From positions 105,665 to 169,664 of the forward strand of contig JABAQU010000015.1 of the NCBI GenBank assembly GCA_019187185.1: a stretch of DNA of 64,000 nt. Reading direction: 5' to 3'. This document shows, in pieces, positions 11,913-38,961 of the stretch. Every line of letters begins with the position of its first letter. Position 1 is the first letter of the stretch. The translations under genes and the position numbers were made by a program. Source of the stretch: Steroidobacteraceae bacterium. GTDB lineage: Bacteria; Pseudomonadota; Gammaproteobacteria; Steroidobacterales; Steroidobacteraceae. Under the pieces are notes generated by a model. It saw only the letters and a list, made by a program, of their open reading frames with translations, made no database searches and was not told the origin of the DNA.

Positions 11913-11944
11913 GCTGGATCTCCTCCGTCCGGGTTGGCGCCGAC

Positions 11945-12442
11945 TCAGGCGGGCCCTGATTGTTCGCGCAGGCGCCGGGCCGCGAGCCGCACCGACGCGA
12001 TGATGGTCTCGTACCCCGTGCAGCGGCACAGGTTCCCGCCCAGTGCTTCCTTGATGGCCTCGTCGTCGGGATCGGGGTTGTCGCGCAGCAGTTCGACCGT
12101 CGACATGATGAAGGCGGGGGTGCAGAACCCGCATTGCAGGCCGTGCGCGTCGACGAACGCCTGCTGCACCGGGTGCAGCTTGCCGGTCTCCGGGTCGCGC
12201 AGTCCTTCGATCGTCGTCACCTCCATGCCGTCGGCCTGCACGGCGAGCGTGAGGCAGGAGCGCGCCGGCAAGCCGTCGATGAGCACCGTGCAGACGCCGC
12301 AGATGCCGTGTTCGCAGCCGACGTGAGTGCCGCCCAGATGCAGGTCGTGACGCAGGAAGTCCGCGAGCGTGACGCGTGGCTCGACTTCCCGCTCGTAGAC
12401 GCGGCCGTTGACCGTCACCCGCGTGCGCTGTCTCGTTGTCAT
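11945..12442 (-). CDS. (2Fe-2S)-binding small subunit of the Mo hydroxylase (CoxS-like)
   Basis: 165 aa from ATG 12442. Both 2Fe-2S motifs are present: CEHGICGVCTV and CGFCTP...CRCTGY. Confidence 0.9.
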   Translation of the reverse strand: MTTRQRTRVTVNGRVYEREVEPRVTLADFLRHDLHLGGTHVGCEHGICGVCTVLIDGLPARSCLTLAVQADGMEVTTIEGLRDPETGKLHPVQQAFVDAHGLQCGFCTPAFIMSTVELLRDNPDPDDEAIKEALGGNLCRCTGYETIIASVRLAARRLREQSGPA

Positions 12443-12461
12443 GATCTCGTGCCTGCTCCTG

Positions 12462-13337
12462 TCACGCCGCGCGCGCCGCGGCTTCTGCGAGGCAGCGTTC
12501 CGTGAGTACCTTGACCAGCTGGCGGCGGTAGTCCGGCGTCGCGTGCACGTCGCCGAGCGGTTCGGCGACGGACTCGCCGGCCACGGCCGCCGCACGCGCA
12601 AAATTCTCCGTCGTCGCCGACTGGCCGTTGAGTGCCGCTTCGGCCGCCGGCAAGCGCACCGCGGTGGCATTGACGCCAAAGGCGCCGATGCGCACGTCTT
12701 CGCATCGGCCATTGGCCTTGCGCAGCGTGACGGCGATGCCCGCGAGCGCGAGGTCGCCGTGGCGTTTCGCGAATTCCTGGATCGCCCAGCCGGTGCCGGG
12801 CCGAAACGGTGGCAACCGCACCTCGACAAGTATCTCGGTCGCTTCGAGGCTGGTCGTCATGAAGGTCACGAAGAAATCGCTCGCCGCGATCTCGCGCACG
12901 CCGTTCGGCCCCTGCGCCCGCATCCGGATGTCCTGGACCAGCGCAACCGCCGGGTACTCGGCCGCCGGATCGGCGTGCGCGAACGAGCCGCCGACGGTGC
13001 CGCGATTGCGGATCTGGCGGTGGCCGATCAGCAGCGTTGCCGCGTGGAAGAGGGGTTGTTGTTCGCGGAGCAGCGGCGAGTCCTCCGCCGCGCGCTTGCT
13101 CGCCATCGAGCCGATCGCGATCGCCTCGCCCTCCGCGCGGATGTAATCGAGCGCCTCGATCTTGCCGAGATCGACCAGCACCTGCGGGCGTGCGATGCGC
13201 ATGTTGAGCATCGGCATCAGGCTCTGGCCACCCGCCAGCAGCTTCGTGTCGAGGCCCTCGCCCTCGAAGCGCTGCAGCAGCGCGATCGCCGATTCGACCG
13301 TCGGCGGCGCATGGTAATCAAAAGAGGCGGCTTTCAC
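12462..13337 (-). CDS. FAD-binding medium subunit of the Mo hydroxylase (CoxM-like)
   Basis: 291 aa from GTG 13337 (VKAASFDYHAP). LLAGGQSLMPMLNMR and RNRGTVGGS motifs. Gene order M-S-L is as in cox/xdh-type operons. Confidence 0.85.
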   Translation of the reverse strand: MKAASFDYHAPPTVESAIALLQRFEGEGLDTKLLAGGQSLMPMLNMRIARPQVLVDLGKIEALDYIRAEGEAIAIGSMASKRAAEDSPLLREQQPLFHAATLLIGHRQIRNRGTVGGSFAHADPAAEYPAVALVQDIRMRAQGPNGVREIAASDFFVTFMTTSLEATEILVEVRLPPFRPGTGWAIQEFAKRHGDLALAGIAVTLRKANGRCEDVRIGAFGVNATAVRLPAAEAALNGQSATTENFARAAAVAGESVAEPLGDVHATPDYRRQLVKVLTERCLAEAAARAA

Positions 13338-13481
13338 GTGCGTGTCCCGATCCGGATCCTCTGGTACATCCCGTGCGCCGCAGCTTGCAGCCGGGCCGCG
13401 TACGAGGTCAACCGCGCTGCCGCAAGTGGCGGTGGCTGCATTTGACCACGCGTGAACACTGGGGCATCGTCCGATTGGAGG

Positions 13482-13506
13482 TATCGGCCGCGTGCAGCGG
13501 CCGATA
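13482..13506. promoter_or_regulatory. perfect 10-bp inverted repeat (TATCGGCCGC-N5-GCGGCCGATA) in a divergent promoter region; candidate operator
   Basis: Read directly from the sequence. Lies 59 nt upstream of the NMO-like gene start (13565) and 145 nt upstream of the coxM-like start (13337) on the other strand. Confidence 0.4.
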
Positions 13507-13564
13507 ATTTGCATTCAGCATCGGGGTCGGTGCGCGGTCAAATCCAGTTCGGCAGGTAACGTCC

Positions 13565-14662: not shown

Positions 14663-14933
14663 GCGGGCCGCACCGGATTTCCGGACCCGGGACGGCTTCG
14701 ACGCCGCAATGCAGGGTCGCCGGGCCGAGTGCGACGGTGGCAAGGCCATCGAGGGCACGCATTTCGCGGGTCGCCAGCAGTTCGCGGGCACCCTGACGGG
14801 GCAATATCGCGATTTCGGTGACTACCCGTGGCGCTGGTATCTCATGACGGATCTCACGCACAAGCCGGAAGGCTATGCGCACGAGGCTGTCTGGTGCGAC
14901 GCCGGCAGCCTGGATTTCGAAGGCAAAGAATGA
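14622..14933 (+). CDS. small hypothetical protein (74-103 aa depending on start)
   Basis: Third-codon positions are mostly G/C, as in neighbouring genes. Amino-acid composition is normal (DYPWRWYLMTDLTHKPEGYAHEAVWCD). Stop lies 4 nt before etfB. Alternative starts at 14634 and 14709. I recognise no family. Confidence 0.4.
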   Translation: MRHSMSSNASPPPERAAPDFRTRDGFDAAMQGRRAECDGGKAIEGTHFAGRQQFAGTLTGQYRDFGDYPWRWYLMTDLTHKPEGYAHEAVWCDAGSLDFEGKE

Positions 14934-14937
14934 ACCC

Positions 14938-15735
14938 ATGCGCATCGTAGTCTGTGTAAAGGAAGTGCTCGACCCGAACGCCGTCAACAACCTGGCGCTC
15001 GCGGGCAAGCTGAGGATCGGCGCCGACGGGCGCACGCTCGACGTGGCGAGTGTGCCGCGGCTGATCAATGGCTATGACGAGCAGGGCATGGAAGTCGCGC
15101 TGCGCATCCGTGATGCGGGGGTCGAGTGCCGGATCGCCGTCGTGTCGATCGGCGGGGACCAGCAGGCCGTGCTGCGGCATTGCGCGGCGCTCGGCGCGGA
15201 CGAAATCGTCGCGATCGATCCGGCCGGGGCCGAACTCGACTGCGAAGCGGTGGCGAAGCTGCTCGCGGCCTGGATCAAGGGCAGTGGCGGCGCAGATCTC
15301 GTCCTCTGCGGGCGCCAGGCGTCCGACGACGACCAGGGCGTCGTGCCGGTGTTGCTCGCGGAAAAACTCGGCCTGCCCGCCGTGCTGTTTGCGCGCGCGG
15401 TCGAAGTGTCGGGCACGAGCCTGCGCGTGACGCGCGTGACGAGCGACGGCGACGAGGTCGTGCAGGGCGCGATGCCCGCGCTCGTGACCGTGAGCAACGA
15501 AGTGGGTGTGCCGCGTTTCCCGACGGCCAAGTCCAAGATGGCCGCGCGCAAGATGGCGCCGGTTGCGGTCACGGCCGCCTCGCTCGGCCTCTCGGCGGGA
15601 GATCTCGCGCCGACGGTCGCGCTGGTGAAGCAGCAACTCCCGGTGGTCGCCGGCAACTGCGAGTTCCTGCAGGGCTCGGCGCCCGAGGTGGCGCAAACGC
15701 TGATTGCGCGCCTGCGCGCCGACGGCGTGATCTGA
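14938..15735 (+). CDS. etfB: electron transfer flavoprotein beta subunit
   Basis: 265 aa from ATG 14938. MRIVVCVKEVLDP, LVLCGRQASDDDQGVVPVLLAEKLGLP. Confidence 0.9.
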   Translation: MRIVVCVKEVLDPNAVNNLALAGKLRIGADGRTLDVASVPRLINGYDEQGMEVALRIRDAGVECRIAVVSIGGDQQAVLRHCAALGADEIVAIDPAGAELDCEAVAKLLAAWIKGSGGADLVLCGRQASDDDQGVVPVLLAEKLGLPAVLFARAVEVSGTSLRVTRVTSDGDEVVQGAMPALVTVSNEVGVPRFPTAKSKMAARKMAPVAVTAASLGLSAGDLAPTVALVKQQLPVVAGNCEFLQGSAPEVAQTLIARLRADGVI

Positions 15736-15742
15736 GGCCCGC

Positions 15743-16363
15743 ATGGCGATCGAGCTCAGGCAGACCTTCGAAGTGCGGGCGCCGATCGATGCGGTCTGGG
15801 CATTCATGCTGAATCCCGAGAACGTCGTCGCCTGCATGCCAGGGGCATCGCTGACGCAAATCGTCGACGAGCGGAGCTTTGTCGGCGCGGTGAAGGTCAA
15901 GGTCGGTGCGGTCAGCGCGCAGTACCAGGGGACGATCACCTACGCGGAGACGGACCGCGCGGCCGGCATCGTGAAATTGCTGGCCGAAGGCAAGGAACGG
16001 GGTGGCGGGACCGTGCGGGGCACGATCACGAGCCGGCTCACGAGCATCGCAGGCGGAGCGGCCACGAGCGTCGAGACGAGCTCGAGCATCGACCTCACCG
16101 GCAAGATCGCGCAGGTCGGTCGCGGGATGATCGAAGGTGTCTCGGGCCAGATCATCAAGATGTACGTCAACAACGTGCGCGCGATGCTCGAACCTGCGGC
16201 GAGCGCTGCGGCCGGCGCGGGCACGGCTCCGGGCAGCGTGCCTGGCGCGTCGCCTGCACCGCCACCGGCCCGCCAGGAATCGATCAACATCGTTGCCGTC
16301 GTCCTGAAGACGCTGTGGGAGGGCCTCAAGGGCTTTTTCAGGCGCCTCTTCGGTCGCGCGTAG
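15743..16363 (+). CDS. CoxG-like SRPBCC-fold protein with Ala/Pro-rich linker and C-terminal amphipathic helix
   Basis: 206 aa. FEVRAPIDAVWAFMLNPENVVACMPG...GKIAQVGRGMIEGVSGQIIKMYVNNV is CoxG-like. The tail reads AAAGAGTAPGSVPGASPAPPPA followed by INIVAVVLKTLWEGLKGFFRRLFGRA. Confidence 0.8.
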   Translation: MAIELRQTFEVRAPIDAVWAFMLNPENVVACMPGASLTQIVDERSFVGAVKVKVGAVSAQYQGTITYAETDRAAGIVKLLAEGKERGGGTVRGTITSRLTSIAGGAATSVETSSSIDLTGKIAQVGRGMIEGVSGQIIKMYVNNVRAMLEPAASAAAGAGTAPGSVPGASPAPPPARQESINIVAVVLKTLWEGLKGFFRRLFGRA

Positions 16364-16372
16364 AGGGGCTTC

Positions 16373-17332
16373 ATGAGCGTAGTCGTCTGCAGTTGGGGAA
16401 ACACGGTCGAACGCGGCACCGAGGAAGTGCTCACGGCGGCGCGCGCCTACAGTGTCGCCGCGGGGCTGCCATTGCGATGGGTGGTCGCGGGAACCGACTG
16501 CGAGGCCGTGCGTGGGTTGGCTGCGCGCTACGGGGTTGCGGCGGTGGACCTCATCAGCCACCCGAAGCTGGCCGGCTATGGCCCCGACGCGCTGACAGAG
16601 GCGCTTGCCCGTTATTTCGCGCAGGTGCAGGCGGCTGCCGTCCTCCTGAACCAGACGGCGGAATCGCGCCTCGTGGCGCCGCGTCTCGCGACGCGACTGG
16701 GCGGCGCCGTGGTGACGAACGTGTTTGCGCTGCGACACGAGGGGGGGGCTCTGCACGTGTCGGCGACGGCCTATGGCGGCGATACTCATGCAACCTACCG
16801 CATGCCTGCGAAGAACAGCATCGTGTGCGTCGCCACGACGACGCTCGCAGCCGAGCATGCCGCCGCGCCGACCGAGCCGCAGTGCAACCCGGTCGATGTC
16901 GACCTGGGTGCCGTCGAGGAGCGCTTCAAGGTCACCGCTGCGCCCAAGGCGGAGGGGCCGCGCCTCGAGGATGCGGAAATCATCGTCGGCGGCGGTCGCG
17001 GCCTCGGCAAGGCGGACAATCTCGGCCTGATCAGGGACCTCGCCGCGGCCCTCGGCGGCATGTGGGGCGGCTCCCGCCTGCTCGTCGACGACGGCTGGAT
17101 CGACGCGTCGCGACAGATCGGCCTCACGGGCAAGATCACGCGGCCGCGCCTGTACGTCGCGGCCGGCATTTCCGGCGCGAGCCAGCACATGGCCGGTTGC
17201 TCGGCCGCGAAAACGATCGTTGCGATCAACAAGGACCGGGACGCGGCCATTTTCCGCTACGCGCGCTTTGGCATCGTCGGTGATTGCCTCGAAGTGATAC
17301 CGGAACTCATCAAGGCAGCCCGTGGTGGCTGA
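16373..17332 (+). CDS. etfA: electron transfer flavoprotein alpha subunit
   Basis: 319 aa. C-terminal FAD-binding signature YVAAGISGASQHMAGCSAAKTIVAINKDRDAAIFRYARFGIVGD. Confidence 0.9.
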   Translation: MSVVVCSWGNTVERGTEEVLTAARAYSVAAGLPLRWVVAGTDCEAVRGLAARYGVAAVDLISHPKLAGYGPDALTEALARYFAQVQAAAVLLNQTAESRLVAPRLATRLGGAVVTNVFALRHEGGALHVSATAYGGDTHATYRMPAKNSIVCVATTTLAAEHAAAPTEPQCNPVDVDLGAVEERFKVTAAPKAEGPRLEDAEIIVGGGRGLGKADNLGLIRDLAAALGGMWGGSRLLVDDGWIDASRQIGLTGKITRPRLYVAAGISGASQHMAGCSAAKTIVAINKDRDAAIFRYARFGIVGDCLEVIPELIKAARGG

Positions 17333-17759
17333 CGGAGAAACGCCAGTGGTCGAATCCTCCCAACCGTGTGTACCGGGCCTGTTCGCCGCCGACGGTGGCG
17401 CGCGGGTCCTCGGGTCGCGCTGCACTGCCTGCGGCACACCGTATTTCCCGAAGGCGGCGAGTTGTCACAACCCGAAATGCCCGGGCTCGAAGATGGAGCC
17501 CTGCGAATTCGGCGGCCGGGGCAAGGTGTGGAGCTATTCGGTCGCGGATTTCCCGCCGCCGCCGCCCCACAAGCACGACAAGCCGTTCAAGCCGTATGCG
17601 ATCGCCGTGGTCGATCTCGACAGCGGCCTGCGGCTCGTCGGGCAGATGGTCGATCCGCCGTCGGCCATGAGCGTCGGCGCGGCGGTCGAACTGGTCGTCG
17701 ACACGCTCTACCACGAGGAAGGCAAGGCCTTCACGACGTGGAAATTCAAGCTGGCCTGA
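17322..17759 (+). CDS. DUF35 OB-fold / zinc-ribbon protein (thiolase partner)
   Basis: Zinc-ribbon Cys pairs CTACGTPYFP...CHNPKC, followed by the OB fold (KVWSYSV...YAIAVVDLDSGLRLVG). An alternative GTG at 17346 has GGAG 8 nt upstream and would give 137 aa. Confidence 0.85.
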   Translation: MVADGETPVVESSQPCVPGLFAADGGARVLGSRCTACGTPYFPKAASCHNPKCPGSKMEPCEFGGRGKVWSYSVADFPPPPPHKHDKPFKPYAIAVVDLDSGLRLVGQMVDPPSAMSVGAAVELVVDTLYHEEGKAFTTWKFKLA

Positions 17760-17779
17760 GCCGCGGGGAGTAAGCAGTC

Positions 17780-18973
17780 ATGCAGGATGTCGCAGTACTG
17801 GGCGTGGGACTCCACCGTTTCGGCAAGACCGGCGACGATGTCGTCGGCAACAAGTCCGTGACGGAACTGTGCCGGCACGCGGTGGACAAGGCGCTCGAGG
17901 ACGCCGGCGTGTCCTGGCGTCAGATCGAGGCTGTTGCCGCCGCGAGCTCGCGCTTCTCGGGCGGCAAGGGCTGGGGACTGAACGGCAACGACGTCGTCGA
18001 GGACATCGGGTCGACGGGCATCCCGGTCTTCAACATGTCCGCGGGCTGCGCCGCCGGCGGGAACGCATTCAATGTCGGCTATTCGCTGGTGGCGGGCGGG
18101 ATGTACGACCTCGTGCTCGTCGTCGGGGGCGAGGTGATGCCGAAGGGCATGATCCAGACCTCGGGCGTCGAGGAAGCCACGGACCCGGAATTCCTGCGCC
18201 AGCGCTGCATCGGCTTTCCCGGGCCGTCATTCTGGGCAACGCTCGCGCGCCGCCGCATGCACGATTACGGCACCACCGAGGAGCAGTTCGCGAGCGTCAC
18301 GGTGAAGGCCCGCAAGTGCTCCGTCGGCAATCCGTATGCACGCTTCCAGAAGGAGATCACGCTCGCCGACGTGCTGGCGTCCCCCTACGTCAGCAATCCG
18401 TTGCGCCTGTTCGAGATCTGTCCGGTGTCGAACGGTGCGGCTGCGGCGGTCATCTGCTCCAAGCGCAAGGCCCGCGAGTTCACGAAGAAGCCCGTCTGGG
18501 TCGCTTCGAGCGCCGTGGCGACGTTGACCTTCGAGGATTCGCTGCCGCGCGGCCTCGCGGGCCCGGTCCCGAGCGGCCCGAGTTTTCACACGGAGGTGAA
18601 GGGTGCAGTCACGCGTGCGTTCGAGCGGGCCGGCATCGGTCCGAAGGACGTGAGCTTCACGGAGCTGCAGGACAACACCTGCTACTACGAGCTCGCATTT
18701 CCGGAGGAATGGGGGCTCTGCGAACCCGGGGAGTCCGAGCGGCTGGTTGCGGCCGGCGAGACGACCCCGACCGGGCGCATGCCGATCAATCCGTCGGGCG
18801 GCTTCGTGTCGTTCGGTGAAGCGACGACCGCCATGGGCGTGTTCCAGATCGCGGAAGTCACCTGGCAGCTGCGAGGCCAGTCGGGTGCCCGGCAGGTACC
18901 CGGCGCGAAGGTCGGTCTCGCACAGACGAATGGACTGGGCGGCAACGCGACGGCAGCCATCCTGAAACGCTGA
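17780..18973 (+). CDS. SCP-x-type thiolase-like protein (DUF35-associated)
   Basis: 397 aa. The nucleophile-position Cys is present (FNMSAGCAAGGNAF, compare INVNNNCATGSTAL of SCP2 thiolases). C-terminal INPSGGFVSFGEATTAMG. Confidence 0.85.
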   Translation: MQDVAVLGVGLHRFGKTGDDVVGNKSVTELCRHAVDKALEDAGVSWRQIEAVAAASSRFSGGKGWGLNGNDVVEDIGSTGIPVFNMSAGCAAGGNAFNVGYSLVAGGMYDLVLVVGGEVMPKGMIQTSGVEEATDPEFLRQRCIGFPGPSFWATLARRRMHDYGTTEEQFASVTVKARKCSVGNPYARFQKEITLADVLASPYVSNPLRLFEICPVSNGAAAAVICSKRKAREFTKKPVWVASSAVATLTFEDSLPRGLAGPVPSGPSFHTEVKGAVTRAFERAGIGPKDVSFTELQDNTCYYELAFPEEWGLCEPGESERLVAAGETTPTGRMPINPSGGFVSFGEATTAMGVFQIAEVTWQLRGQSGARQVPGAKVGLAQTNGLGGNATAAILKR

Positions 18974-19023: not shown

Positions 19024-20967
19024 GTGTACGACATCGGCGCGGTGAACTACGGCCTCCTCGCGATCCTGCTGTGCGGCGCAGGCGCCGCGCTCGTGCTCGG
19101 CCTGCGCGACATCTGGCGGCGCGCCTCGGCCGAAGGCTCGCCGTTCGCCGGTGCCACGGCGCTCGGCGACATCGTCGGGCGCATCAACTGGCGCTCGTTC
19201 CTGACGCGCGGCGTGCTGCTTTCGCGCCTCTACAAGCGGCCGGCATCGGGCATCGCGCACGCGCTGCTCTTCTACGGCGCGCTGCTCGAGATCTTCGGGC
19301 ATGGCGTCTACGCGCTGAGTTTCGTCGGCGTTCCCGTCTATTCGGGCCGGTTCGGCTACCTCGTCATGGAACTCGGGCGTGACGTGGGCGGGCTCGCGAT
19401 GCTGCTCGGTGTCGTGTTCTTCCTGCTGCGGCGCTCGAAGCCGCCGGAGCGGCTGACCGTCGGCAAGGCCCGCCGTGGCTTCGTCGTCATGGAAACGCTC
19501 CTCCTCCTCGTCATCGTCGCGGGCTTCGTCGCCGAGTCGGTCCGCCTCGCGCAACCGGGGATCACGAGTGCCGGGGAATTTGTCGGCCTCGCGGCGGCCC
19601 GATGGGTGGGGCAGATCGGCGCGGTGATGCACGAGCACAGCTATCTTGTGCTGTGGTGGTTCCACGGACTGCTCGGTCTCGCGTTCATCGTGCTGATCAC
19701 CCGCACGCCGATGTCACACATGCTGCTCGGCCCGATCAACACGGCGCTCGCCAAGAGGCGCCCGGGCGTGACGATACCGGCGATCGATTTCGACGCCGAG
19801 GAGCCGGTCCTCGGTGTCGAGAAGCTCGCCGACCTGCCGTTCAAGAACCGCTTCGACTTCGAGGCGTGCCTGTGGTGCGGCCGTTGCCACGAGGTGTGCC
19901 CGGCCGCGCAGACCGGCAAACCGCTCTCGCCGAAAAAGATCATGCTGACCTGCGCCGAGTACCAGGCGCAGGGGCGGACCGACGACGCGTCGCTGATCGA
20001 TACGCTCGGCGTCGATGCGCTCTTCAGTTGCACGAGTTGCGGGGCCTGCGTGGAGGAGTGCCCCGTGACCAACGACCCGGCCGAGGTGATCCTGCACTTC
20101 AGGCGCCAGCTCGTCATGGGCCGCTCCGAGATGCCGGACGTCATGGCGAGTGCGAACCGCAACCTCGAATCGCGCTGCCACCCGTTCGTCGGCACCGCGG
20201 CCAACCGCGACGACTGGCATCGCGGCCTCGAGGTGCCGCGCTTTGTCCCGGGGCAGACCGAGTACCTGCTCTGGATCGGGTGCTCCGTCGCCTACGAAGA
20301 GCGTGCGCAGAAGATCGCGCGTGCGATGGTGCGGATCCTCGATGCCGCGGGTCTTTCGTGGGGCATCCTCGAGGAGACCCGCTGCACGGGCGATCCGGCC
20401 AAGATGATGGGCAACGAGCTGCTGTTCGTCGAACTGGCGCAGGCCAACATCGAGGAGTTCCAGGAGGCGAAGGTCACGAAGGTGATCACGATGTGCCCGC
20501 ACAGCTTCAACAGCTTCAGCAGGTACTATCCGCAGCTCGGCGCGCAGTGGGAAACGGTCATGCACTCGGTGCTGATCGACCGGCTGATCAAGGGCGGCAA
20601 GCTCGCGGTCAAGCGCGATGCGCTGCAGAAAATCGTGTTCCACGATCCGTGCTATCTCGCGCGGCACAATGGCATCGAAGCCGAGCCCCGGGGTGTCGTC
20701 GCGTCGGTCGGCGAACTCGTCGAGATGCCGCGCAACCGCGAGAACAGCTTCTGCTGCGGTGGCGGCGGGGGCAAGTACTGGTCGCGCGAGACGGGCACGG
20801 CGCGCATCAGCGACGTGCGGATCACGGAGGCCCTCGGCACGGGCGCGAACAAGGTCGCGACCTCCTGTCCGATCTGCCTCCTGATGCTGAGTTCGAGCGC
20901 GGCGAAGCACTCGGAGGAGCCGCGGGTCTTCGACCTCGCGGAACTCGTCTCCGAGGCGCTGCAATAA
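19024..20967 (+). CDS. membrane-bound Fe-S oxidoreductase: NarI/DsrM-like multi-helix N-terminus fused to an HdrD/GlpC-like 2x[4Fe-4S] plus CCG domain
   Basis: 647 aa, GTG start. About 5-6 hydrophobic helices with conserved His (IAHALLFYGALLEIFGHG, WWFHGLLG). Two ferredoxin motifs, CLWCGRCHEVCP and CTSCGACVEECP. Cys-rich CCG-type motifs (CTGDP, CPHSFN, DPCYL, FCCGGGGG, CPICL). Confidence 0.85.
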   Translation: MYDIGAVNYGLLAILLCGAGAALVLGLRDIWRRASAEGSPFAGATALGDIVGRINWRSFLTRGVLLSRLYKRPASGIAHALLFYGALLEIFGHGVYALSFVGVPVYSGRFGYLVMELGRDVGGLAMLLGVVFFLLRRSKPPERLTVGKARRGFVVMETLLLLVIVAGFVAESVRLAQPGITSAGEFVGLAAARWVGQIGAVMHEHSYLVLWWFHGLLGLAFIVLITRTPMSHMLLGPINTALAKRRPGVTIPAIDFDAEEPVLGVEKLADLPFKNRFDFEACLWCGRCHEVCPAAQTGKPLSPKKIMLTCAEYQAQGRTDDASLIDTLGVDALFSCTSCGACVEECPVTNDPAEVILHFRRQLVMGRSEMPDVMASANRNLESRCHPFVGTAANRDDWHRGLEVPRFVPGQTEYLLWIGCSVAYEERAQKIARAMVRILDAAGLSWGILEETRCTGDPAKMMGNELLFVELAQANIEEFQEAKVTKVITMCPHSFNSFSRYYPQLGAQWETVMHSVLIDRLIKGGKLAVKRDALQKIVFHDPCYLARHNGIEAEPRGVVASVGELVEMPRNRENSFCCGGGGGKYWSRETGTARISDVRITEALGTGANKVATSCPICLLMLSSSAAKHSEEPRVFDLAELVSEALQ

Positions 20968-20983: not shown

Positions 20984-21763
20984 ATGGCACTGAATCTTCC
21001 CGAGACGTTCACTTACGAGAAGCGCGGCCGCATTGCGGTGATGACGCTGAACCGGCCGCAGGCGGCCAATGCGATGACCCGCGAAATGATCGTGGGCATG
21101 GACGCGGCGTTCGACGATTTCAACGCCGACCCCGCGCTGCACGTCGCGATCCTCACCGGCGCGGGCAATCGATCGTTCTGCACGGGGATGGACATGAAGT
21201 CTGCGCTCCCCGCGATCGCGGCCGGCGACTCGATGGGCTACGAGGACCCGGTGAAGCGGCCGTTCCAGACGATCTACAAGCCGATCATCGCGGCGGTGAA
21301 CGGCATGTGCATGGCCGGCGGCATGGAGTTCATGCTGGGCACCGATATCCGCCTCGCCGCGGAGAACGCGACCTTCGGCCTGAGCGAAGTGCGCTGGGCG
21401 GTGATCCCGGTCGGTGGCAGCCACATCCGCCTGCCGCAGCAGATCCCGTGGGCCGTCGCGATGGAGATGCTGCTGACGGGCGCCAGCATCGACGCGCAGC
21501 GGGCCTACGAGGTGGGGCTCGTGAACCGCATCGTGCCGGCCGAGCGGCTGCTCGACGAGGCGCTGGCGCTGGCGGAGAAGATCTGCGACAACGGTCCGCT
21601 CGCGGTGCGCACGGCGAAGGAGATCGCGGTGCGGGCGCTCAACAACGAACCGAATTTCGTCCTCGAGAAGGCGATCGGCGCGCGGGTGTTCTCGTCCGCG
21701 GACGCGCGTGAAGGACCGAAGGCCTTCGCCGAAAAGCGCAAGCCCGACTACAAGGGGCGCTGA
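20984..21763 (+). CDS. enoyl-CoA hydratase/isomerase (crotonase)
   Basis: 259 aa. AVMTLNRPQAANAM, FCTGMDM, IIAAVNGMCMAGGMEF, EGPKAFAEKRKPDYKG. Confidence 0.9.
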   Translation: MALNLPETFTYEKRGRIAVMTLNRPQAANAMTREMIVGMDAAFDDFNADPALHVAILTGAGNRSFCTGMDMKSALPAIAAGDSMGYEDPVKRPFQTIYKPIIAAVNGMCMAGGMEFMLGTDIRLAAENATFGLSEVRWAVIPVGGSHIRLPQQIPWAVAMEMLLTGASIDAQRAYEVGLVNRIVPAERLLDEALALAEKICDNGPLAVRTAKEIAVRALNNEPNFVLEKAIGARVFSSADAREGPKAFAEKRKPDYKGR

Positions 21764-21813: not shown

Positions 21814-21852
21814 TTGCGGGCATATTCGACGGCGGCGCGGCATTGCCCGCAA
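21814..21852 (+). promoter_or_regulatory. 9-bp stem (TTGCGGGCA / TGCCCGCAA) with 21-nt loop in the 131-nt gap before the acyl-CoA dehydrogenase gene
   Basis: Read directly from the sequence. This is the largest intergenic gap inside the long + strand gene array. Confidence 0.3.
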
Positions 21853-21894
21853 TACACGCCGCACGGCGGCTCGGCCACGTTCCGGAGTCAATGC

Positions 21895-23076
21895 ATGGAC
21901 TTTGAATTCAGCGACAAAGAGCGCGCCTTCCTGCGCGAAGTGGACGAGTTCCTGACGGCCAACCACGACCCGAAGGTCATGGACGTCACGCGCGAGAACA
22001 TGGCGCAGGTGTGCGATACGCCGGAGAGGCGTGCCTTCATGGGCAAGCTCGCGAAGAAGGGCTGGCTCGGCATCACCTGGCCCCGCGAGGTCGGCGGCCA
22101 GGACGGCGAGGGCTTCTACGAGTACCTGCTGAACGAGAAGCTGTCGTCGGTCGGCGCGCCGCAGATCGGCAAGGGCATCGGCATCATCGGCAAGACGCTG
22201 ATCCGCGTCGGCTCCGAGAAACTCAAGAAGGAGTTCCTGCCGCAGATCCTCGCGGCGAAGATCGAGTTCGCGGTCGGCTACTCCGAGCCGAGCGCCGGCT
22301 CCGACGCCGCGGCGATGCGCCTGAAGGCCGAGCGCAAGGGTGATGGCTGGGTGCTGAACGGCCAGAAGATCTTCACGACTTCGGCCCACTTCGCCGACTG
22401 GTACTGGGTCGGTGCGCGCACGAATCCCGAGGCACCGAAGCACCATGGCATCTCGCTGTTCCTCGTGCGCATGGATGACCCGGGCCTCACGATCCAGCCC
22501 ATGTACACGATGGGCAACGAACGCACCAACGCCGTCTTTTTCGACAATGTGTTCGTGCACGACGACTACCGGGTCGGCGAACTCGGCAAGGGCTTCCAGT
22601 ACATCGCCGAGGCGCTCGACATCGAGCGCTTCACGATGTTCACGTTCTCGCCGATACGCGGGCGCGTCGAGCTGCTGTGCAATTTCGTGCGCGACACCGT
22701 GCGCGACGGCAAGCGCCTCCGGGACGATCCGGTCATTCGCCAGCGCATCGCGCAGCTCGTGACCGAGTGCGAGGTGGCGCGCCTCCTCGGCGTGCGCTTC
22801 GTCGATGCGGCGCTGTATTCGACCAAGACACCGACGATCGAGGCCTCCGAGTACAAGCTCTATGCGACGGAGCTGTCGCGGCGCGTGGCCGACGCGACCA
22901 TGGATATCGTGGGCCCGGGGGCGCAGCTCGCGCTCGGTACCGAGGACGCGCCGCTCAAGGGACGCCCGGAAAGCTGCTACACCTACACGGTGATCGACAC
23001 GATCGGCGGCGGGTCTTCCGAGGTCCAGAAGAACATCATCGCCAAGCGCAAGTTCGACCTGCCGAAGAACTTCTGA
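21895..23076 (+). CDS. acyl-CoA dehydrogenase
   Basis: 393 aa from ATG 21895 (MDFEFSDKERAFLREV). FAVGYSEPSAGSDAAAM, GWVLNGQKIFTT, C-terminal IGGGSSEVQKNIIA. Confidence 0.9.
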   Translation: MDFEFSDKERAFLREVDEFLTANHDPKVMDVTRENMAQVCDTPERRAFMGKLAKKGWLGITWPREVGGQDGEGFYEYLLNEKLSSVGAPQIGKGIGIIGKTLIRVGSEKLKKEFLPQILAAKIEFAVGYSEPSAGSDAAAMRLKAERKGDGWVLNGQKIFTTSAHFADWYWVGARTNPEAPKHHGISLFLVRMDDPGLTIQPMYTMGNERTNAVFFDNVFVHDDYRVGELGKGFQYIAEALDIERFTMFTFSPIRGRVELLCNFVRDTVRDGKRLRDDPVIRQRIAQLVTECEVARLLGVRFVDAALYSTKTPTIEASEYKLYATELSRRVADATMDIVGPGAQLALGTEDAPLKGRPESCYTYTVIDTIGGGSSEVQKNIIAKRKFDLPKNF

Positions 23077-25291: not shown

Positions 25292-26455
25292 ATGGACCTG
25301 AAATTTACCGACGAACAACGGATGTTGCGGGAAACCACCCGCGATCTGTGCGTGGCCAGCTGCGGCATGGACGTGGTCCGCAAGGTGGAGAACGATCCAT
25401 CCGGAGTGCCGCAAGCGCTCTGGCAGAACATGAAGGAAATGGGTCTCACCGGGATCCTCGTGCCGCAGGAGTTCGACGGCATGGGGCTCGCGATGCTGGA
25501 CTGCGCCGTCATCTACGAGGAATTCGGTCGCGCGCTCGTGCCGGGGCCGCATTTCCCGAGTGCCGTCGTCAGCGTCCTCGCGATCCGCCGGGCGGGCGAC
25601 GCCGCGCAGCAGAAGGCGCTCCTGCCCGGCATCGGCAGCGGCGAGCACATCGTCGTCCCGGCCTGGCTCGAACCGGACGGCGGCTACGGGCCGCAGGGTG
25701 TGCAGCTCACGGCAACTGCCGTGAAGGGCGGCTTCAGCCTGCGCGGCGTGAAGCGCCATGTATTCTGCGCGAAGGCGGCACAGCAGCTGCTCGTCCTCGC
25801 ACGCACCGGTACGGGGGCCGAGGATGTCGACCTGTTCCTCGTCGATACGACGGCGAAGGGCGTGACGCTCGAGCAGCAGAAGTCGATGGCGTCGGATACG
25901 CAGTATCGCGTCACGTTCGACGACGTCGTCGTGCCGCAGGCACAGCGCCTCGGTGCCGCGGGCAGCGGCTGGAAGCACTGGTCGGATGCGATGCACGAAG
26001 CCATCATCCTGCTCGGTGCCTATGCGGCCGGCGGGGCGGAGCGCGCGCTCGAGATCACGGTGCAGTATTCCAAGGACCGCCAGCAGTTCGGCAAGCCGAT
26101 CGGCGCGTTCCAGGCGCTGGCGCACTACATGGCCGATGCGGCGCCGGTCGTGGAAGGTGCGAAGGTGCTGGTGTACGAGGCGGCCTGGGCGCACGCCAAC
26201 GGGCGCGACATCCGCCGGCTCGCCCCGATGGCGAAACTCTTCGGCTGCAAGACCTTTCGCGATGTCACGCACATGGCGCAGCAGGTGCACGGCGGCATCG
26301 GCTTCACGCTCGACTACGACATCCAGCTCTACTACCGGCGCGCCAAGCAGCTGCAGCTGAACTGGTGGGATTCCCGCTATCTCGAGGGTCTGATCGCGAT
26401 CGACGTGCTGGACCGGGGGCTGCCGCGGACGATCCCGGATCCGTTTGCGCCATGA
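25292..26455 (+). CDS. acyl-CoA dehydrogenase
   Basis: 387 aa. MDLKFTDEQRMLRE, QFGKPIGAFQALAH, HGGIGFTLDYDIQLYYRRAK. Confidence 0.9.
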   Translation: MDLKFTDEQRMLRETTRDLCVASCGMDVVRKVENDPSGVPQALWQNMKEMGLTGILVPQEFDGMGLAMLDCAVIYEEFGRALVPGPHFPSAVVSVLAIRRAGDAAQQKALLPGIGSGEHIVVPAWLEPDGGYGPQGVQLTATAVKGGFSLRGVKRHVFCAKAAQQLLVLARTGTGAEDVDLFLVDTTAKGVTLEQQKSMASDTQYRVTFDDVVVPQAQRLGAAGSGWKHWSDAMHEAIILLGAYAAGGAERALEITVQYSKDRQQFGKPIGAFQALAHYMADAAPVVEGAKVLVYEAAWAHANGRDIRRLAPMAKLFGCKTFRDVTHMAQQVHGGIGFTLDYDIQLYYRRAKQLQLNWWDSRYLEGLIAIDVLDRGLPRTIPDPFAP

Positions 26456-37707: not shown

Positions 37708-38961
37708 TCAGCCGAGTGCGCCGGCCGCCTTCAGATCGGCACAGCGCTGTGCGTCGTAACCGAGGACTTCGCGCAGTACCTGGCCCGTATGTTCGCCGAC
37801 GGTCGGCGCGATGGCGGGTGCGGGCAACTGCTCACCGACGAACTGCACCGGGAAACCGAGCATGTCCGCGCCGTGGGTTTCGTGCGGCAGGATCTGGAAC
37901 CGGGCCTTGAACTGCGGGTCGTCGACGATGTTCTGCGGGGTGTTCACGGGCGCAATCGGCGTGTTGGCCTCGGCGCTGAACTTGAGCCACTGCTGGCTGG
38001 TCCTCGTCTTGAAGATGTCGCGCAGCTCGGCCTGCAGCGCACGGTTGCCGCGTGCATGGTCGGCGTACTTCGAGCCGGGCCACTTTTCGAACAGGTCCAT
38101 GCGCCCGACGCCCGCACAGAAGTTCTTCCAGAACGCCTGCTCGGAGGCCATGAACAGCACGTGGCCATCGCTGGATTCGTAGAGCTGATAGCGCACGCCT
38201 TCACGCATGCCGGCCGTCGCGACCGGGCGGCGCTGGTAGCCGTCGGCCTTGTTGCCGGTGACGACGTCTTCGGGCCGCGCATACGCCATGTGGCTTTCGC
38301 TGCGGTACCAGTCGAACGCGGCGGCTGCATCGCTCTGGGCGAGTTCCATGAAGCAGCCGACGCCCGTGGCGCGGGCCCGTATGACGCCCGCCAGCACGGC
38401 GAGGCCGCCGAAGAGCGGTGCGGCATTGATGCCGATGCCGACATGTTCCGGGATGTAGCAGAAGCCCTCGTCATCGTAGGCCGGCTTGCAGGTGCCCGAC
38501 CAGGTGTCGTACGCGATGCCGTGCGAAGGCATGTCCTTGTAGGGCCCGGTCATGCCATAGCCCGAGACCGTGCAGAACACGATGCGGGGATTGATCTTGC
38601 GCAGGTCCTCGTAGCCGAGCTTGTTCCGCGCGAGCGCACCCGGCTTCGAGGCCTCGATGACGACGTCCGCACCCTTGACGAGTTCCCGATAGACCTCGCG
38701 CGCGGCCTCGACCTTGAGGTCGAGCGTGATGCTCTTCTTGCCGCGGTTCAGGTGATAGTGCATCAGCGAGATGCCCTGGATGATCGGCCAGGTCATCTCG
38801 CGGATGTAATCACCGGCGGGCGTTTCGACCTTGATGACGTCGGCACCGAGGTCCGCGAACGCCGTCGTGATCGCGGCGGGCCCGAGGATCGAGCTTTCGA
38901 TGACGCGCACACCCGCCAGCGGGGCGGGTGTGGTGGCCACCTCACTTGGCCGGCTTGACAC
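37708..38961 (-). CDS. family III (CaiB/BaiF) CoA-transferase
   Basis: 417 aa. VRVIESSILGPAAITTAFADLGADVIKVETP, SGYGMTGPYKDMPSHGIAYD. Confidence 0.9.
   Translation of the reverse strand: MSSRPSEVATTPAPLAGVRVIESSILGPAAITTAFADLGADVIKVETPAGDYIREMTWPIIQGISLMHYHLNRGKKSITLDLKVEAAREVYRELVKGADVVIEASKPGALARNKLGYEDLRKINPRIVFCTVSGYGMTGPYKDMPSHGIAYDTWSGTCKPAYDDEGFCYIPEHVGIGINAAPLFGGLAVLAGVIRARATGVGCFMELAQSDAAAAFDWYRSESHMAYARPEDVVTGNKADGYQRRPVATAGMREGVRYQLYESSDGHVLFMASEQAFWKNFCAGVGRMDLFEKWPGSKYADHARGNRALQAELRDIFKTRTSQQWLKFSAEANTPIAPVNTPQNIVDDPQFKARFQILPHETHGADMLGFPVQFVGEQLPAPAIAPTVGEHTGQVLREVLGYDAQRCADLKAAGALG

What the first reader, a model, noticed from the sequence alone, without database searches (positions are those of the whole stretch)
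19024..20967. Membrane NarI/HdrD-type Fe-S oxidoreductase as the likely Etf:quinone outlet
A 647-aa protein fuses a multi-helix, His-containing membrane domain to two CxxCxxCxxxCP ferredoxin motifs and Cys-rich CCG-type motifs. This HdrD/GlpC/DsrK-like architecture is best known from anaerobes, where similar proteins next to etfAB are proposed to pass electrons from acyl-CoA dehydrogenases to menaquinone. Aerobic Proteobacteria normally use the unrelated ETF-QO flavoprotein. Its presence with etfBA inside this array suggests a dedicated and unusual electron exit. Given the F420/NADPH module nearby, it could even serve as an entry route.
Basis: partly seen in the sequence, partly recalled or inferred. 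Interest (0 to 1): 0.58.

Follow-up and report, generated by a model that had tools for sequence, protein, structure and literature searches.

The report
Steroid-island ETF-to-quinone oxidoreductase (EMO/EtfD)
This gene encodes a known type of membrane haem/iron-sulfur enzyme (EMO/EtfD) that passes electrons from acyl-CoA oxidation into the respiratory quinone pool. Here it is an extra, pathway-dedicated copy inside an oxygen-independent steroid-breakdown island of a denitrifying bacterium that also has the standard enzyme.

Summary
It is a full-length member of the EMO/EtfD family. It matches M. smegmatis EtfD (PDB 9OJN) at E 1.6e-83, and the fold match is TM 0.83. All ligands for the proximal haem, both cubane clusters and the proximal non-cubane cluster are present.

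The genome is a ubiquinone-only denitrifier. It also carries a complete canonical ETF-QO and a second, conventional etfBA, so this is an additional, dedicated route.

In 121 Steroidobacteraceae genomes ETF-QO is nearly universal (119). This EMO clade occurs in 7, exactly the 7 that also carry the neighbouring AtcA-like (1-testosterone hydratase/dehydrogenase-type) molybdoenzyme. The same etfA-DUF35-thiolase-EMO module recurs in Sterolibacterium, Denitratisoma and Halieaceae, which are known or proposed 2,3-seco steroid degraders.

Two details differ from both solved EMOs:
- A clade-invariant fourth histidine (H93) aligns with the distal-haem ligand H66 of NarI. It is rare elsewhere in the family.
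- In this lineage one ligand of the outermost cluster is Ser instead of Cys (S494).

The "electron entry" idea is not supported.

The scan found the same kind of thing before on other DNA (e1-2073911, e1-2369177). Verdict: a new member of a known kind, of modest interest.

The parts
19024..20967 (+). EMO/EtfD-type ETF:quinone oxidoreductase gene (647 aa, P0001)
   Evidence: ORF. PDB 9ojn_A E 1.6e-83, profile E 1.1e-113. Foldseek 9ojn E 1.4e-34, TMq 0.83.
19024..19758 (+). NarI-like five-helix haem b membrane domain (residues 1-245). Proximal haem ligands H79/H232. Distal-site H214 plus the clade-specific H93.
   Evidence: Helices from the AF2 model. H79, H214 and H232 align to Ms H78, H223 and H241. 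H93, H214 and H232 align to E. coli NarI H66, H187 and H205 (NarI hit E 0.0037 in the PDB-wide profile search). All four His are invariant in 120/120 close homologues.
19831..20133 (+). [quoted passage not shown] C282, C285, C288, C346 form one site and C292, C336, C339, C342 the other. R287 is the haem-propionate partner.
   Evidence: Pfam Fer4 families. Residue-by-residue match to Ms C301/304/307/422 and C311/412/415/418 and to R306.
20251..20964 (+). HdrB-like non-cubane-cluster (2x CCG) domain. The proximal cluster has C543, C577, C578, C615, C618 plus H493. The distal cluster has C420, C454, C491 with T455 and S494.
   Evidence: PF02754 E 6.9e-26. Mapping to Ms C637/672/673/709/712 + H583 and to C503/538/581/(584->Ser). 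S494 is codon AGC and is shared only with the 4 closest relatives.
14875..15735 (+). Island-specific etfB (probable docking subunit for EMO)
   Evidence: PF01012. Only 31% identical to the genome's other EtfB. In SaEMO, ETF binds through EtfB.
15743..16363 (+). CoxG/SRPBCC-like gene between etfB and etfA. It travels with the EMO in relatives.
   Evidence: PF06240. Found beside the EMO on the opposite strand in L034-L036, L053 and L083.
16373..17332 (+). Island-specific etfA (FAD subunit)
   Evidence: PF00766 + PF01012. Alignable with the other EtfA only over the C-terminal 131 aa, at 52%. Linked to the EMO in most clade loci.
17322..18973 (+). DUF35 (ChsH2-type zinc ribbon/OB) gene plus thiolase-fold gene. 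These are the conserved spacer genes of the etfA-DUF35-thiolase-EMO module.
   Evidence: PF12172/PF01796 and Thiolase_N/Thiolase_C_1. The thiolase is 80-95% identical across the clade.
20984..21763 (+). Enoyl-CoA hydratase gene 16 nt downstream of the EMO
   Evidence: PF00378 E 2e-60. Junction sequence.
21814..23076 (+). Acyl-CoA dehydrogenase, probable electron donor to the island ETF
   Evidence: PF02771/02770/00441.
25292..26455 (+). Second acyl-CoA dehydrogenase of the array
   Evidence: Pfam. These are the only two ACAD matches inside the window.
9492..13514 (-). Divergently transcribed xanthine-dehydrogenase-family Mo enzyme (FAD, 2Fe-2S and Mo subunits). It is a candidate 1-testosterone hydratase/dehydrogenase (AtcABC/1-TDH) and the marker that co-occurs with this EMO clade.
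   Evidence: Pfam. The same arrangement is seen in Denitratisoma and in a Steroidobacteraceae MAG. Co-occurrence 7/7.
38942..39922 (-). Amidohydrolase-2 gene, a candidate steroid ring-A hydrolase (SRAH). Context marker only.
   Evidence: PF04909 E 4e-32. SRAH is an amidohydrolase-2 protein (PMC11780191). Not compared with the characterised sequence.

Best explanation
P0001 is a pathway-dedicated ETF:ubiquinone oxidoreductase of the EMO/EtfD family.

Proposed electron path:
1. Acyl-CoA dehydrogenases of the steroid island oxidise seco-steroid or ring-derived CoA esters and reduce the island's own, divergent EtfBA.
2. Reduced ETF docks, by analogy through EtfB, on the cytoplasmic HdrB-like domain. 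Its FAD passes single electrons to the non-cubane cluster pair.
3. Electrons then move through the two cubane [4Fe-4S] clusters to the proximal haem b (H79/H232).
4. From there they reach ubiquinone. They go either directly at a mid-membrane site, as modelled in mycobacterial EtfD, or through a distal haem held by H214 and the clade-specific H93 to a site near the periplasmic face.

What is shown here: homology, conservation of the ligands, gene linkage, co-occurrence with the island, the presence of a separate ETF-QO, and ubiquinone-only biosynthesis.

What is inferred: the actual cofactor content, the donor ACADs, the substrate, the number of haems, and any coupling to the membrane potential.
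For: Sequence and fold:
- PDB 9ojn_A scores E 1.6e-83 and profile E 1.1e-113.
- Foldseek gives E 1.4e-34 and TMq 0.83 over 715 columns, using a model with pLDDT 89.

Ligands:
- Every ligand reported for Ms EtfD haem b, D2, D3 and D4 is conserved, as are 3 of the 4 D1 ligands.

Function of the family:
- Ms EtfD is needed for energy from beta-oxidation and forms a cluster-haem-quinone wire.
- SaEMO haems are reduced by acyl-CoA + ACAD + EtfAB, and an EMO:EtfAB complex has been solved.

Linkage:
- etfB-coxG-etfA-DUF35-thiolase-EMO-ECH-ACAD lie on one strand.
- The etfA-DUF35-thiolase-EMO module is conserved in about 25 loci of the clade and in Denitratisoma oestradiolicum.

Dedication to the island, in 121 family genomes:
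- ETF-QO is in 119.
- This EMO clade is in 7.
- The AtcA-like orthologue (>=71% identity) is in the same 7.
- The island ETF is very divergent from the other ETF.

Quinone and respiration:
- UbiG scores over cut-off. MenD has no match over cut-off and MqnA has no match, in a genome estimated 100% complete.
- NarG, NirS and NirK are present.

Taxa carrying the clade are the known or proposed 2,3-seco steroid degraders of PMC11780191. The Denitratisoma DHT3 homologue B9N43_01980 lies near the 1-TDH genes B9N43_01910-1920.
Against: No biochemical, expression or genetic data exist for this protein or its clade in the papers I could search.

The genome's canonical ETF-QO could in principle serve all ETFs, so the need for a second outlet is unexplained.

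One ligand of the outermost cluster is Ser (S494) in this lineage, so that cluster may be altered or missing.

In many clade members etfB is not next to the module.

Co-occurrence with the AtcA-like enzyme is equally expected if the whole island simply moves as a block.
Confidence: 0.8

Rival explanations
1. The protein is the membrane outlet for the neighbouring xanthine-dehydrogenase-family molybdoenzyme (the 1-testosterone hydratase/dehydrogenase candidate). The CoxG-like protein would tether that enzyme to the membrane, and ETF would play no role or only a mediating one.
For: There is perfect co-occurrence of the EMO clade with the AtcA-like orthologue in the family sample. The Mo enzyme is divergently adjacent here, in a Steroidobacteraceae MAG and in Denitratisoma. 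A CoxG-like gene sits inside the etf pair and travels with the EMO. From established knowledge, CoxG has been linked to membrane association of CO dehydrogenase, a member of the same enzyme family.
Against: Both characterised EMOs take electrons from ETF. The tightest conserved neighbour is etfA, not the Mo enzyme: in about 20 of the clade loci with etfA beside the EMO no AtcA-like gene lies within 10 kb. The co-occurrence is explained equally well by island-wide inheritance.
Confidence: 0.08
2. The enzyme runs in reverse as an electron entry route. Quinol would be oxidised and electrons passed through ETF to a reductive step of the pathway, such as the delta-4 reduction of the 2,3-seco route or an enoyl-CoA reduction.
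For: SaEMO-type enzymes can run in reverse in enoyl-CoA respiration with low-potential methylmenaquinol (PMC8805022, title and abstract only). The 2,3-seco pathway contains a reductive step (established knowledge).
Against: The genome makes only ubiquinone. By textbook potentials, ubiquinol (about +100 mV) cannot reduce enoyl-CoA or enone couples (about 0 mV). A distal-haem route would additionally work against the membrane potential in that direction.
Confidence: 0.04
3. It is a redundant or decaying passenger of a horizontally transferred island, with no specific role beyond what ETF-QO already provides. The Cys-to-Ser change in the outer cluster would be an early sign of relaxation.
For: ETF-QO is present in all seven clade-bearing genomes. 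S494 replaces a cluster ligand in this lineage only. The tree shows island transfer between Beta- and Gammaproteobacteria.
Against: The frame is intact. 28 of 29 cofactor-ligand and haem-contact positions are conserved here and invariant or nearly so across 120 homologues. The clade has a long, well-supported stem with its own invariant residues. Family members with no outer-cluster cysteines at all (FadF, DgcB) are still assigned roles by genetics.
Confidence: 0.08

Closest known systems
Mycobacterial EtfD / MsEMO (M. smegmatis, PDB 9OJN; M. tuberculosis Rv0338c; PMC13083937, PMC8593149)
   Same: Both are single chains with five TM helices, two cubane clusters and two CCG/non-cubane sites. 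The proximal haem His pair, the Arg contacts, F221 (= Ms F230) and H493 (= Ms H583) are conserved. T455 (= Ms T539) is the signature of the linear [3Fe-4S] type. Both have the ETF-linked beta-oxidation role, including cholesterol use in M. tuberculosis.
   Different: Overall identity is about 30%. There is no ~30 kDa disordered C-terminal tail. His93 stands where Ms has Tyr96, and the Ms structure has no distal haem. Ms C584 is Ser494 here. The host makes ubiquinone, not menaquinone, and also has ETF-QO, which is not reported for mycobacteria in the EtfD papers read here (PMC13083937).
Syntrophus aciditrophicus EMO (SaEMO; bioRxiv 10.64898/2026.08.18.745454)
   Same: Same three-domain architecture. 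All three family-wide histidines are present (Sa H87, H233, H251 = H79, H214, H232). It is encoded with its own ETF. A distal haem site is plausible in both.
   Different: SaEMO has a stacked twin haem with Ala101 at the position 14 residues after the proximal His. Here that spacing gives His93. The Sa outer cluster is a Cys/Gly type [4Fe:5S], while here the pair is Thr/Ser. SaEMO drives endergonic methylmenaquinone reduction with the proton-motive force, whereas ubiquinone reduction by ETF is exergonic.
DgcB (Pseudomonas aeruginosa) and FadF (Bacillus subtilis), EtfD homologues discussed in PMC13083937
   Same: They are family members outside the strict anaerobes. DgcB works in a ubiquinone-using proteobacterium. 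Both are pathway-associated (dimethylglycine, fatty acids).
   Different: They lack all cysteines of the outer cluster, while P0001 keeps three. DgcB-like proteins found in other Steroidobacteraceae also lack the distal His214 equivalent. They lie in a different branch of the tree.
Canonical ETF:ubiquinone oxidoreductase (ETF-QO; PF05187 + PF21162 flavoprotein)
   Same: Same proposed job, passing electrons from ETF to ubiquinone.
   Different: It is an unrelated fold: a monotopic FAD/[4Fe-4S] flavoprotein. It is encoded separately in this genome on contig 9 (545 aa) and is nearly universal in the family.
HdrDE heterodisulfide reductase and NarI (nitrate reductase gamma subunit)
   Same: The HdrD-like cytoplasmic part and the NarI/HdrE-like membrane part are homologous. 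The four-His pattern matches the NarI dihaem ligands at three exactly aligned positions and one shifted by a turn.
   Different: P0001 is fused into one chain. H493 fills the substrate site of the proximal cluster, as in both EMO structures, and the outer cluster is depleted of Cys, so a disulfide-reductase role is unlikely. It is not part of a nitrate reductase operon.

Membership tests
EMO/EtfD (ETF:(methyl)menaquinone oxidoreductase family) | One polypeptide joining a five-helix NarI-like membrane domain, an HdrC-like 2x[4Fe-4S] domain and an HdrB-like two-CCG (non-cubane cluster) domain | tested here: met
   Pfam CCG x2 plus Fer4 dicluster. AF2 model with 5 TM helices plus two short connecting helices. 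Foldseek full-length match to 9ojn, TMq 0.83.
EMO/EtfD (ETF:(methyl)menaquinone oxidoreductase family) | Significant full-length sequence similarity to a characterised member | tested here: met
   phmmer against 9ojn_A gives E 1.6e-83, covering both the TM part (residues 66-312) and the soluble part (328-645). Profile E 1.1e-113.
EMO/EtfD (ETF:(methyl)menaquinone oxidoreductase family) | Three family-wide histidines: the proximal haem pair and the distal-site His | tested here: met
   H79, H232 and H214 align to Ms H78, H241 and H223. H79 and H232 are invariant in 120 close homologues and in 144 distant cluster representatives; H214 is invariant in the 120 and present in 136 of the 144.
EMO/EtfD (ETF:(methyl)menaquinone oxidoreductase family) | Eight Cys for two cubane [4Fe-4S] clusters, and five Cys plus one His for the proximal non-cubane cluster | tested here: met
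   C282/285/288/346, C292/336/339/342, and C543/577/578/615/618 + H493. All are invariant.
EMO/EtfD (ETF:(methyl)menaquinone oxidoreductase family) | A complete ligand set for the distal (outer) non-cubane cluster | tested here: inconclusive
   C420, C454 and C491 are present, but Ms C584 is S494 and the HdrB-type second Cys is T455. The T/S pair is unique among 144 representatives. This site is the variable one in the family, and FadF and DgcB lack it entirely. So it does not exclude membership.
EMO/EtfD (ETF:(methyl)menaquinone oxidoreductase family) | Genomic association with etfAB and acyl-CoA dehydrogenases | tested here: met
EMO/EtfD (ETF:(methyl)menaquinone oxidoreductase family) | Haem b and Fe-S content, ETF-dependent reduction, quinone reduction | not testable with these tools
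   Needs purified protein or membrane vesicles.
Canonical ETF-QO flavoprotein | FAD-binding Rossmann domain, ubiquinone-binding domain PF21162 and a C-terminal PF05187 4Fe-4S domain | tested here: not met
   None of these families hit P0001. They hit a different gene on contig 9.
Soluble CCG Fe-S subunits (GlcF, LutA, GlpC, LdhH) | Score above the curated family cut-off, and no membrane domain | tested here: not met
   GlpC scores 58.5 bits against a 278 cut-off, and LdhH 104 against 800. The LutA model matches only the CCG part (TMq 0.30). P0001 has a 245-aa haem-type membrane domain.
HdrD/HdrB heterodisulfide reductase catalytic subunit | Two five-Cys non-cubane clusters with an open substrate site (a bridging Cys, no blocking His) | tested here: not met
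   H493 occupies the position of the blocking His of both EMO structures, and T455/S494 replace Cys. HdrB/HdrC chains match only weakly (E 1e-4 to 1e-3).
NarI-type dihaem cytochrome b (as a fold, not as a nitrate reductase subunit) | Two His on helix II and two on helix V that ligate a proximal and a distal haem | tested here: inconclusive
   Profile-to-NarI alignment: H93=H66, H214=H187, H232=H205, and H79 one turn from H56 (E 0.0037 PDB-wide). Assignment of the NarI ligands is from established knowledge. Haem occupancy cannot be tested here.

The most novel reading that the evidence does not exclude
The Beta/Gammaproteobacterial clade to which this protein belongs would be a distinct EMO subtype. 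It would have a NarI-like bis-His distal haem (H93/H214), or a twin haem ligated from both sides. It would reduce ubiquinone near the periplasmic face. That would make it the first ubiquinone-linked, membrane-potential-coupled EMO, dedicated to the acyl-CoA dehydrogenases of oxygen-independent (2,3-seco) steroid degradation and evolved alongside an ordinary ETF-QO.
Probability: 0.3. Interest if true: 0.55.

Novelty: new member of a known kind. Interest (0 to 1): 0.32.

Why it matters
The enzymology of oxygen-independent steroid degradation is being worked out step by step (ring-A hydrolase, 2025). How the many acyl-CoA dehydrogenase steps are connected to the respiratory chain is not discussed in the papers I could search.

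This locus, and its strict co-occurrence with the AtcA-like marker, nominates a specific ETF/EMO pair for that link. Several clade members are cultured, so the idea can be tested: Sterolibacterium denitrificans, Denitratisoma oestradiolicum, Pseudohalioglobus lutimaris.

For EMO enzymology, the clade offers a natural variant with a fourth haem-type histidine in a ubiquinone organism. That is a useful contrast to the mono-haem mycobacterial enzyme and the tri-haem syntrophic enzyme.

It does not change what kind of enzyme this is.

Tried and rejected
Steps that gave nothing:
1. An exact-sequence look-up of the window's protein found no record.
2. Pfam on the membrane domain alone gave nothing significant. 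NarI homology appeared only with a 40-sequence profile.
3. The SaEMO sequence is not in the PDB copy and could not be fetched by name. So H93 = Sa A101 rests on equal spacing (14 residues after the proximal His), not on an alignment.
4. Model coordinates are not exposed, so the H93-H214 distance could not be measured. That distance would distinguish one distal haem from two.
5. The ISME J 2016 multi-omics paper on Steroidobacter denitrificans (PMC5029156) is not held, and the supplement of PMC11780191 is not held. So expression of the EMO homologue on testosterone could not be checked.
6. Literature searches for ETF or EMO in Sterolibacterium, Steroidobacter or Denitratisoma papers found no mention. 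This is absence in the held library only.

Readings considered and rejected:
1. GlcF/LutA/GlpC-type subunit.
2. Heterodisulfide reductase (blocking His, depleted Cys).
3. EtfB-CoxG fusion in Denitratisoma. The 525-aa gene call there is etfA read through into DUF35.
4. A simple rule that the fourth His goes with ubiquinone. DgcB-like relatives in the same ubiquinone family lack both distal histidines.
Full report
**Observation.** The ORF at 19024-20967 (+) is real: GTG start, TAA stop, 647 aa. Its start coincides with the N-terminus of the homologue consensus. It lies 50 nt behind a thiolase-fold gene and 16 nt ahead of a crotonase gene.
- Both CxxCxxCxxxCP motifs are present.
- Pfam reports two CCG domains (E 6.9e-26) and a 4Fe-4S dicluster domain.
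- An AlphaFold2 model built on 40 homologues (pLDDT 89, pTM 0.88) shows five transmembrane helices. His79 and His93 lie on helix II, and His214 and His232 on helix V.
- The neighbours on the same strand are a nitronate-monooxygenase-like gene, etfB, a CoxG-like gene, etfA, a DUF35 gene, a thiolase-fold gene, then the ORF, a crotonase, an acyl-CoA dehydrogenase, MaoC-type hydratases and a second acyl-CoA dehydrogenase.

**What it is.** The best match among solved structures is M. smegmatis EtfD.
- PDB 9OJN scores E 1.6e-83 by sequence and 1.1e-113 with a profile. The match covers both the membrane part and the soluble part.
- By fold, 9OJN is the top hit at E 1.4e-34 and TM-score 0.83 over the whole length. 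HdrB chains and a LutA model match only the CCG part (TM about 0.30). NarI chains match the membrane part weakly.
- NCBIfam matches to TfrB, LdhH, GlpC, DsrK and others are partial and far below their cut-offs.

EtfD, also called EMO, is now well characterised.
- The mycobacterial enzyme couples beta-oxidation to the menaquinone pool. Its wire runs through a linear [3Fe-4S] cluster, a non-cubane [4Fe-4S], two cubane clusters and one haem b (PMC13083937).
- The Syntrophus enzyme has been solved alone and with EtfAB bound. It has a proximal haem and a stacked distal twin haem (bioRxiv 10.64898/2026.08.18.745454).

**Residue mapping from the HMMER alignment, checked against the sequence.**
- Proximal haem: H79/H232 (Ms H78/H241).
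- Distal-site His: H214 (Ms H223, Sa H233).
- Propionate partners: R136 and R287, with R150 nearby.
- Quinone-stacking residue: F221 (Ms F230).
- Cubane clusters: C282/285/288/346 and C292/336/339/342.
- Proximal non-cubane cluster: C543/577/578/615/618 plus H493.
- Outer cluster: C420, C454 and C491, with T455 as in the mycobacterial enzyme. Ser494 (codon AGC) stands where Ms has Cys584 and Sa has Gly535.

**Two departures from the solved enzymes.**

The first is His93.
- It is invariant in all 120 close homologues (>=55% identity).
- It is present in all 38 members of a monophyletic Beta/Gammaproteobacterial clade (SH-aLRT 100, stem length 0.88).
- In more distant EMO homologues the position is Thr, Leu, Val or Ser.
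- Among 144 representatives of the nearest clusters at 50% identity, only this clade's representative and one other cluster have His. The rest are Thr 95, Ser 10, Asn 10, Ala 8 and Tyr 6.
- In a profile alignment to E. coli NarI, H93, H214 and H232 fall on H66, H187 and H205. By established knowledge these are the distal-haem pair and one proximal ligand.
- H93 lies 14 residues (about 21 A along a helix) from H79. That matches the roughly 20 A haem spacing reported for SaEMO and the spacing of Sa Ala101 from Sa His87.
- I therefore infer a distal haem with His ligation from helix II, either a single bis-His haem or a twin haem ligated from both sides. This is an inference from sequence only.
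- Other clade-specific invariant residues on the periplasmic half (Y9, Y106, R119) point to a remodelled distal site.

The second is the Thr455/Ser494 pair.
- It leaves the outer cluster with three cysteines.
- Ser494 is shared only with the four closest relatives.
- The T/S combination is unique among the 144 representatives. The common combinations are T/C 57, C/C 44 and C/G 13.
- FadF and DgcB lack this cluster altogether, so this does not argue against function.

**Genome context.**
- The assembly is 3.55 Mb and estimated 100% complete. It carries a complete canonical ETF-QO (FAD, ubiquinone-binding and 4Fe-4S domains, 545 aa) on contig 9.
- It has a second, conventional etfBA about 83 kb downstream of the window. 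The island ETF is highly divergent from it: EtfB is 31% identical, and EtfA is alignable only over the FAD domain.
- UbiG scores above cut-off, while MenD (no match over cut-off) and MqnA (no match) point to no menaquinone pathway. The acceptor must therefore be ubiquinone.
- NarG, NirS and NirK are present, so the organism is a denitrifier.
- Sixteen of 28 acyl-CoA dehydrogenase matches lie on the window's contig, many as adjacent pairs.
- The window also holds a xanthine-dehydrogenase-family Mo enzyme divergent from the array, and an amidohydrolase-2 gene. These are the two families of 1-testosterone hydratase/dehydrogenase and of the ring-A hydrolase SRAH in the 2,3-seco pathway (PMC11780191). 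I did not compare them with the characterised sequences.

**Distribution.**
- In a sample of 121 Steroidobacteraceae genomes, ETF-QO is found in 119. This tally includes one unpublished genome, G119.
- Close homologues of P0001 (>=62% identity) are found in 7.
- Orthologues of the Mo-enzyme large subunit (>=71% identity) are found in exactly the same 7, spread over 5 genera.
- Related genomes are not independent, and the island may move as a block. Still, the pattern shows an accessory, island-linked gene.
- Across 80 loci from named genomes, the etfA-DUF35-thiolase-EMO module is conserved throughout the clade. etfB, the CoxG-like gene and the NMO-like gene are nearby or elsewhere.
- Clade members include Sterolibacterium, Denitratisoma, Rhodocyclaceae, Pseudohalioglobus lutimaris and Seongchinamella sediminis. 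Aromatoleum and Thauera appear among the protein hits. These are the known or proposed 2,3-seco degraders listed in PMC11780191.
- In Denitratisoma oestradiolicum the EMO lies about 4.4 kb (two genes) downstream of the Mo-enzyme genes. In strain DHT3 the homologue B9N43_01980 is close to the 1-TDH genes B9N43_01910-1920.
- The papers on these clusters that I could search do not mention ETF or EMO in them.

**Mechanism.** The best-supported reading is a pathway-dedicated ETF:ubiquinone oxidoreductase. The island ACADs reduce the island EtfBA. ETF docks on the HdrB-like domain, through EtfB by analogy with SaEMO. Electrons run through the non-cubane pair, the two cubane clusters and the proximal haem to ubiquinone.

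It is open whether ubiquinone is reduced near the proximal haem or beyond a distal haem at the periplasmic face. [quoted passage not shown] Reduction of ubiquinone by ETF is exergonic by textbook potentials, so a pmf-assisted route is not obviously needed. That is the main unexplained point.

Reverse operation (quinol to ETF) is disfavoured for the same thermodynamic reason. A role as outlet for the Mo enzyme through CoxG cannot be excluded. It is less likely, because etfA and not the Mo enzyme is the constant neighbour.

**Comparison and novelty.** The protein passes every testable membership criterion of the EMO/EtfD family except a complete outer-cluster ligand set, and that site is the family's variable one. 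It is not an ETF-QO, not a GlcF/LutA/GlpC-type subunit and not a heterodisulfide reductase. The EMO preprint already speaks of tri-, di- and mono-haem forms, so a dihaem-type EMO is anticipated in the literature.

Earlier notes of this scan reached the same kind of conclusion on other genomes: e1-2073911 (steroid-island EMO beside a standard ETF-QO) and e1-2369177 (etfA-DUF35-thiolase-EMO with etfB far away).

I therefore file it as a new member of a known kind. What this report adds:
- the clade-defining fourth histidine;
- the lineage-specific Ser494;
- the ubiquinone-only background;
- the exact co-occurrence with the AtcA-like marker.

Noticed in passing
L095:6323-10091, L096:4959-8742, L097:5538-9306, L098:5809-9572 (other Steroidobacteraceae genomes G095, G038, G118, G090): A distant, DgcB-like EMO relative (about 30% identical) sits divergently, about 250 bp away, from a full-length ETF-QO paralogue that is 46-48% identical to this genome's ETF-QO. 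This relative has no distal His, Lys at position 93 and no outer-cluster cysteines. The two unrelated ETF:quinone oxidoreductase types are thus paired head to head in four genomes.
   Followed up: partly
window 17780-18973 and clade loci: Across the clade the thiolase-fold gene in front of the EMO is 80-95% identical. That is more conserved than the EMO (57-92%) or EtfA (58-86%). This is unusually strong constraint for a pathway enzyme.
   Followed up: no
window 15743-16363; L034-L036, L053, L083: The CoxG/SRPBCC-like gene that splits etfB and etfA here travels with the EMO in relatives. It often lies directly downstream on the opposite strand, which suggests it belongs to the ETF/EMO module.
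   Followed up: partly
L003:7053-9849 and L003:17013-19793 (Denitratisoma oestradiolicum): The etfA-DUF35-thiolase unit occurs twice in inverted orientation around the EMO. In the copy next to the EMO, etfA matches in two pieces and is called as one 525-aa gene running into DUF35. This may be a frameshift or a fusion.
   Followed up: partly
genome contig C3 (window = C3:105665-169664): Sixteen of the genome's 28 acyl-CoA dehydrogenase matches lie on this one contig between about 16 kb and 247 kb, mostly as adjacent pairs. That is the pattern of heteromeric steroid ACADs. The second etfBA (C3, about 252 kb) lies near the last pair, so the island may span well over 200 kb.
   Followed up: no
genome C2:77303-79957 and C4:138108-140825: Two further DMSO-reductase-family frames (992 and 969 aa) match NarG only weakly. 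They could be steroid C25-dehydrogenase-type enzymes for anaerobic sterol side-chain hydroxylation.
   Followed up: no
tree (L022 versus L021, L029, L041, L088): One Steroidobacteraceae EMO groups inside the Rhodocyclaceae sequences instead of with the other Steroidobacteraceae. This is consistent with transfer of the island between Beta- and Gammaproteobacteria.
   Followed up: no
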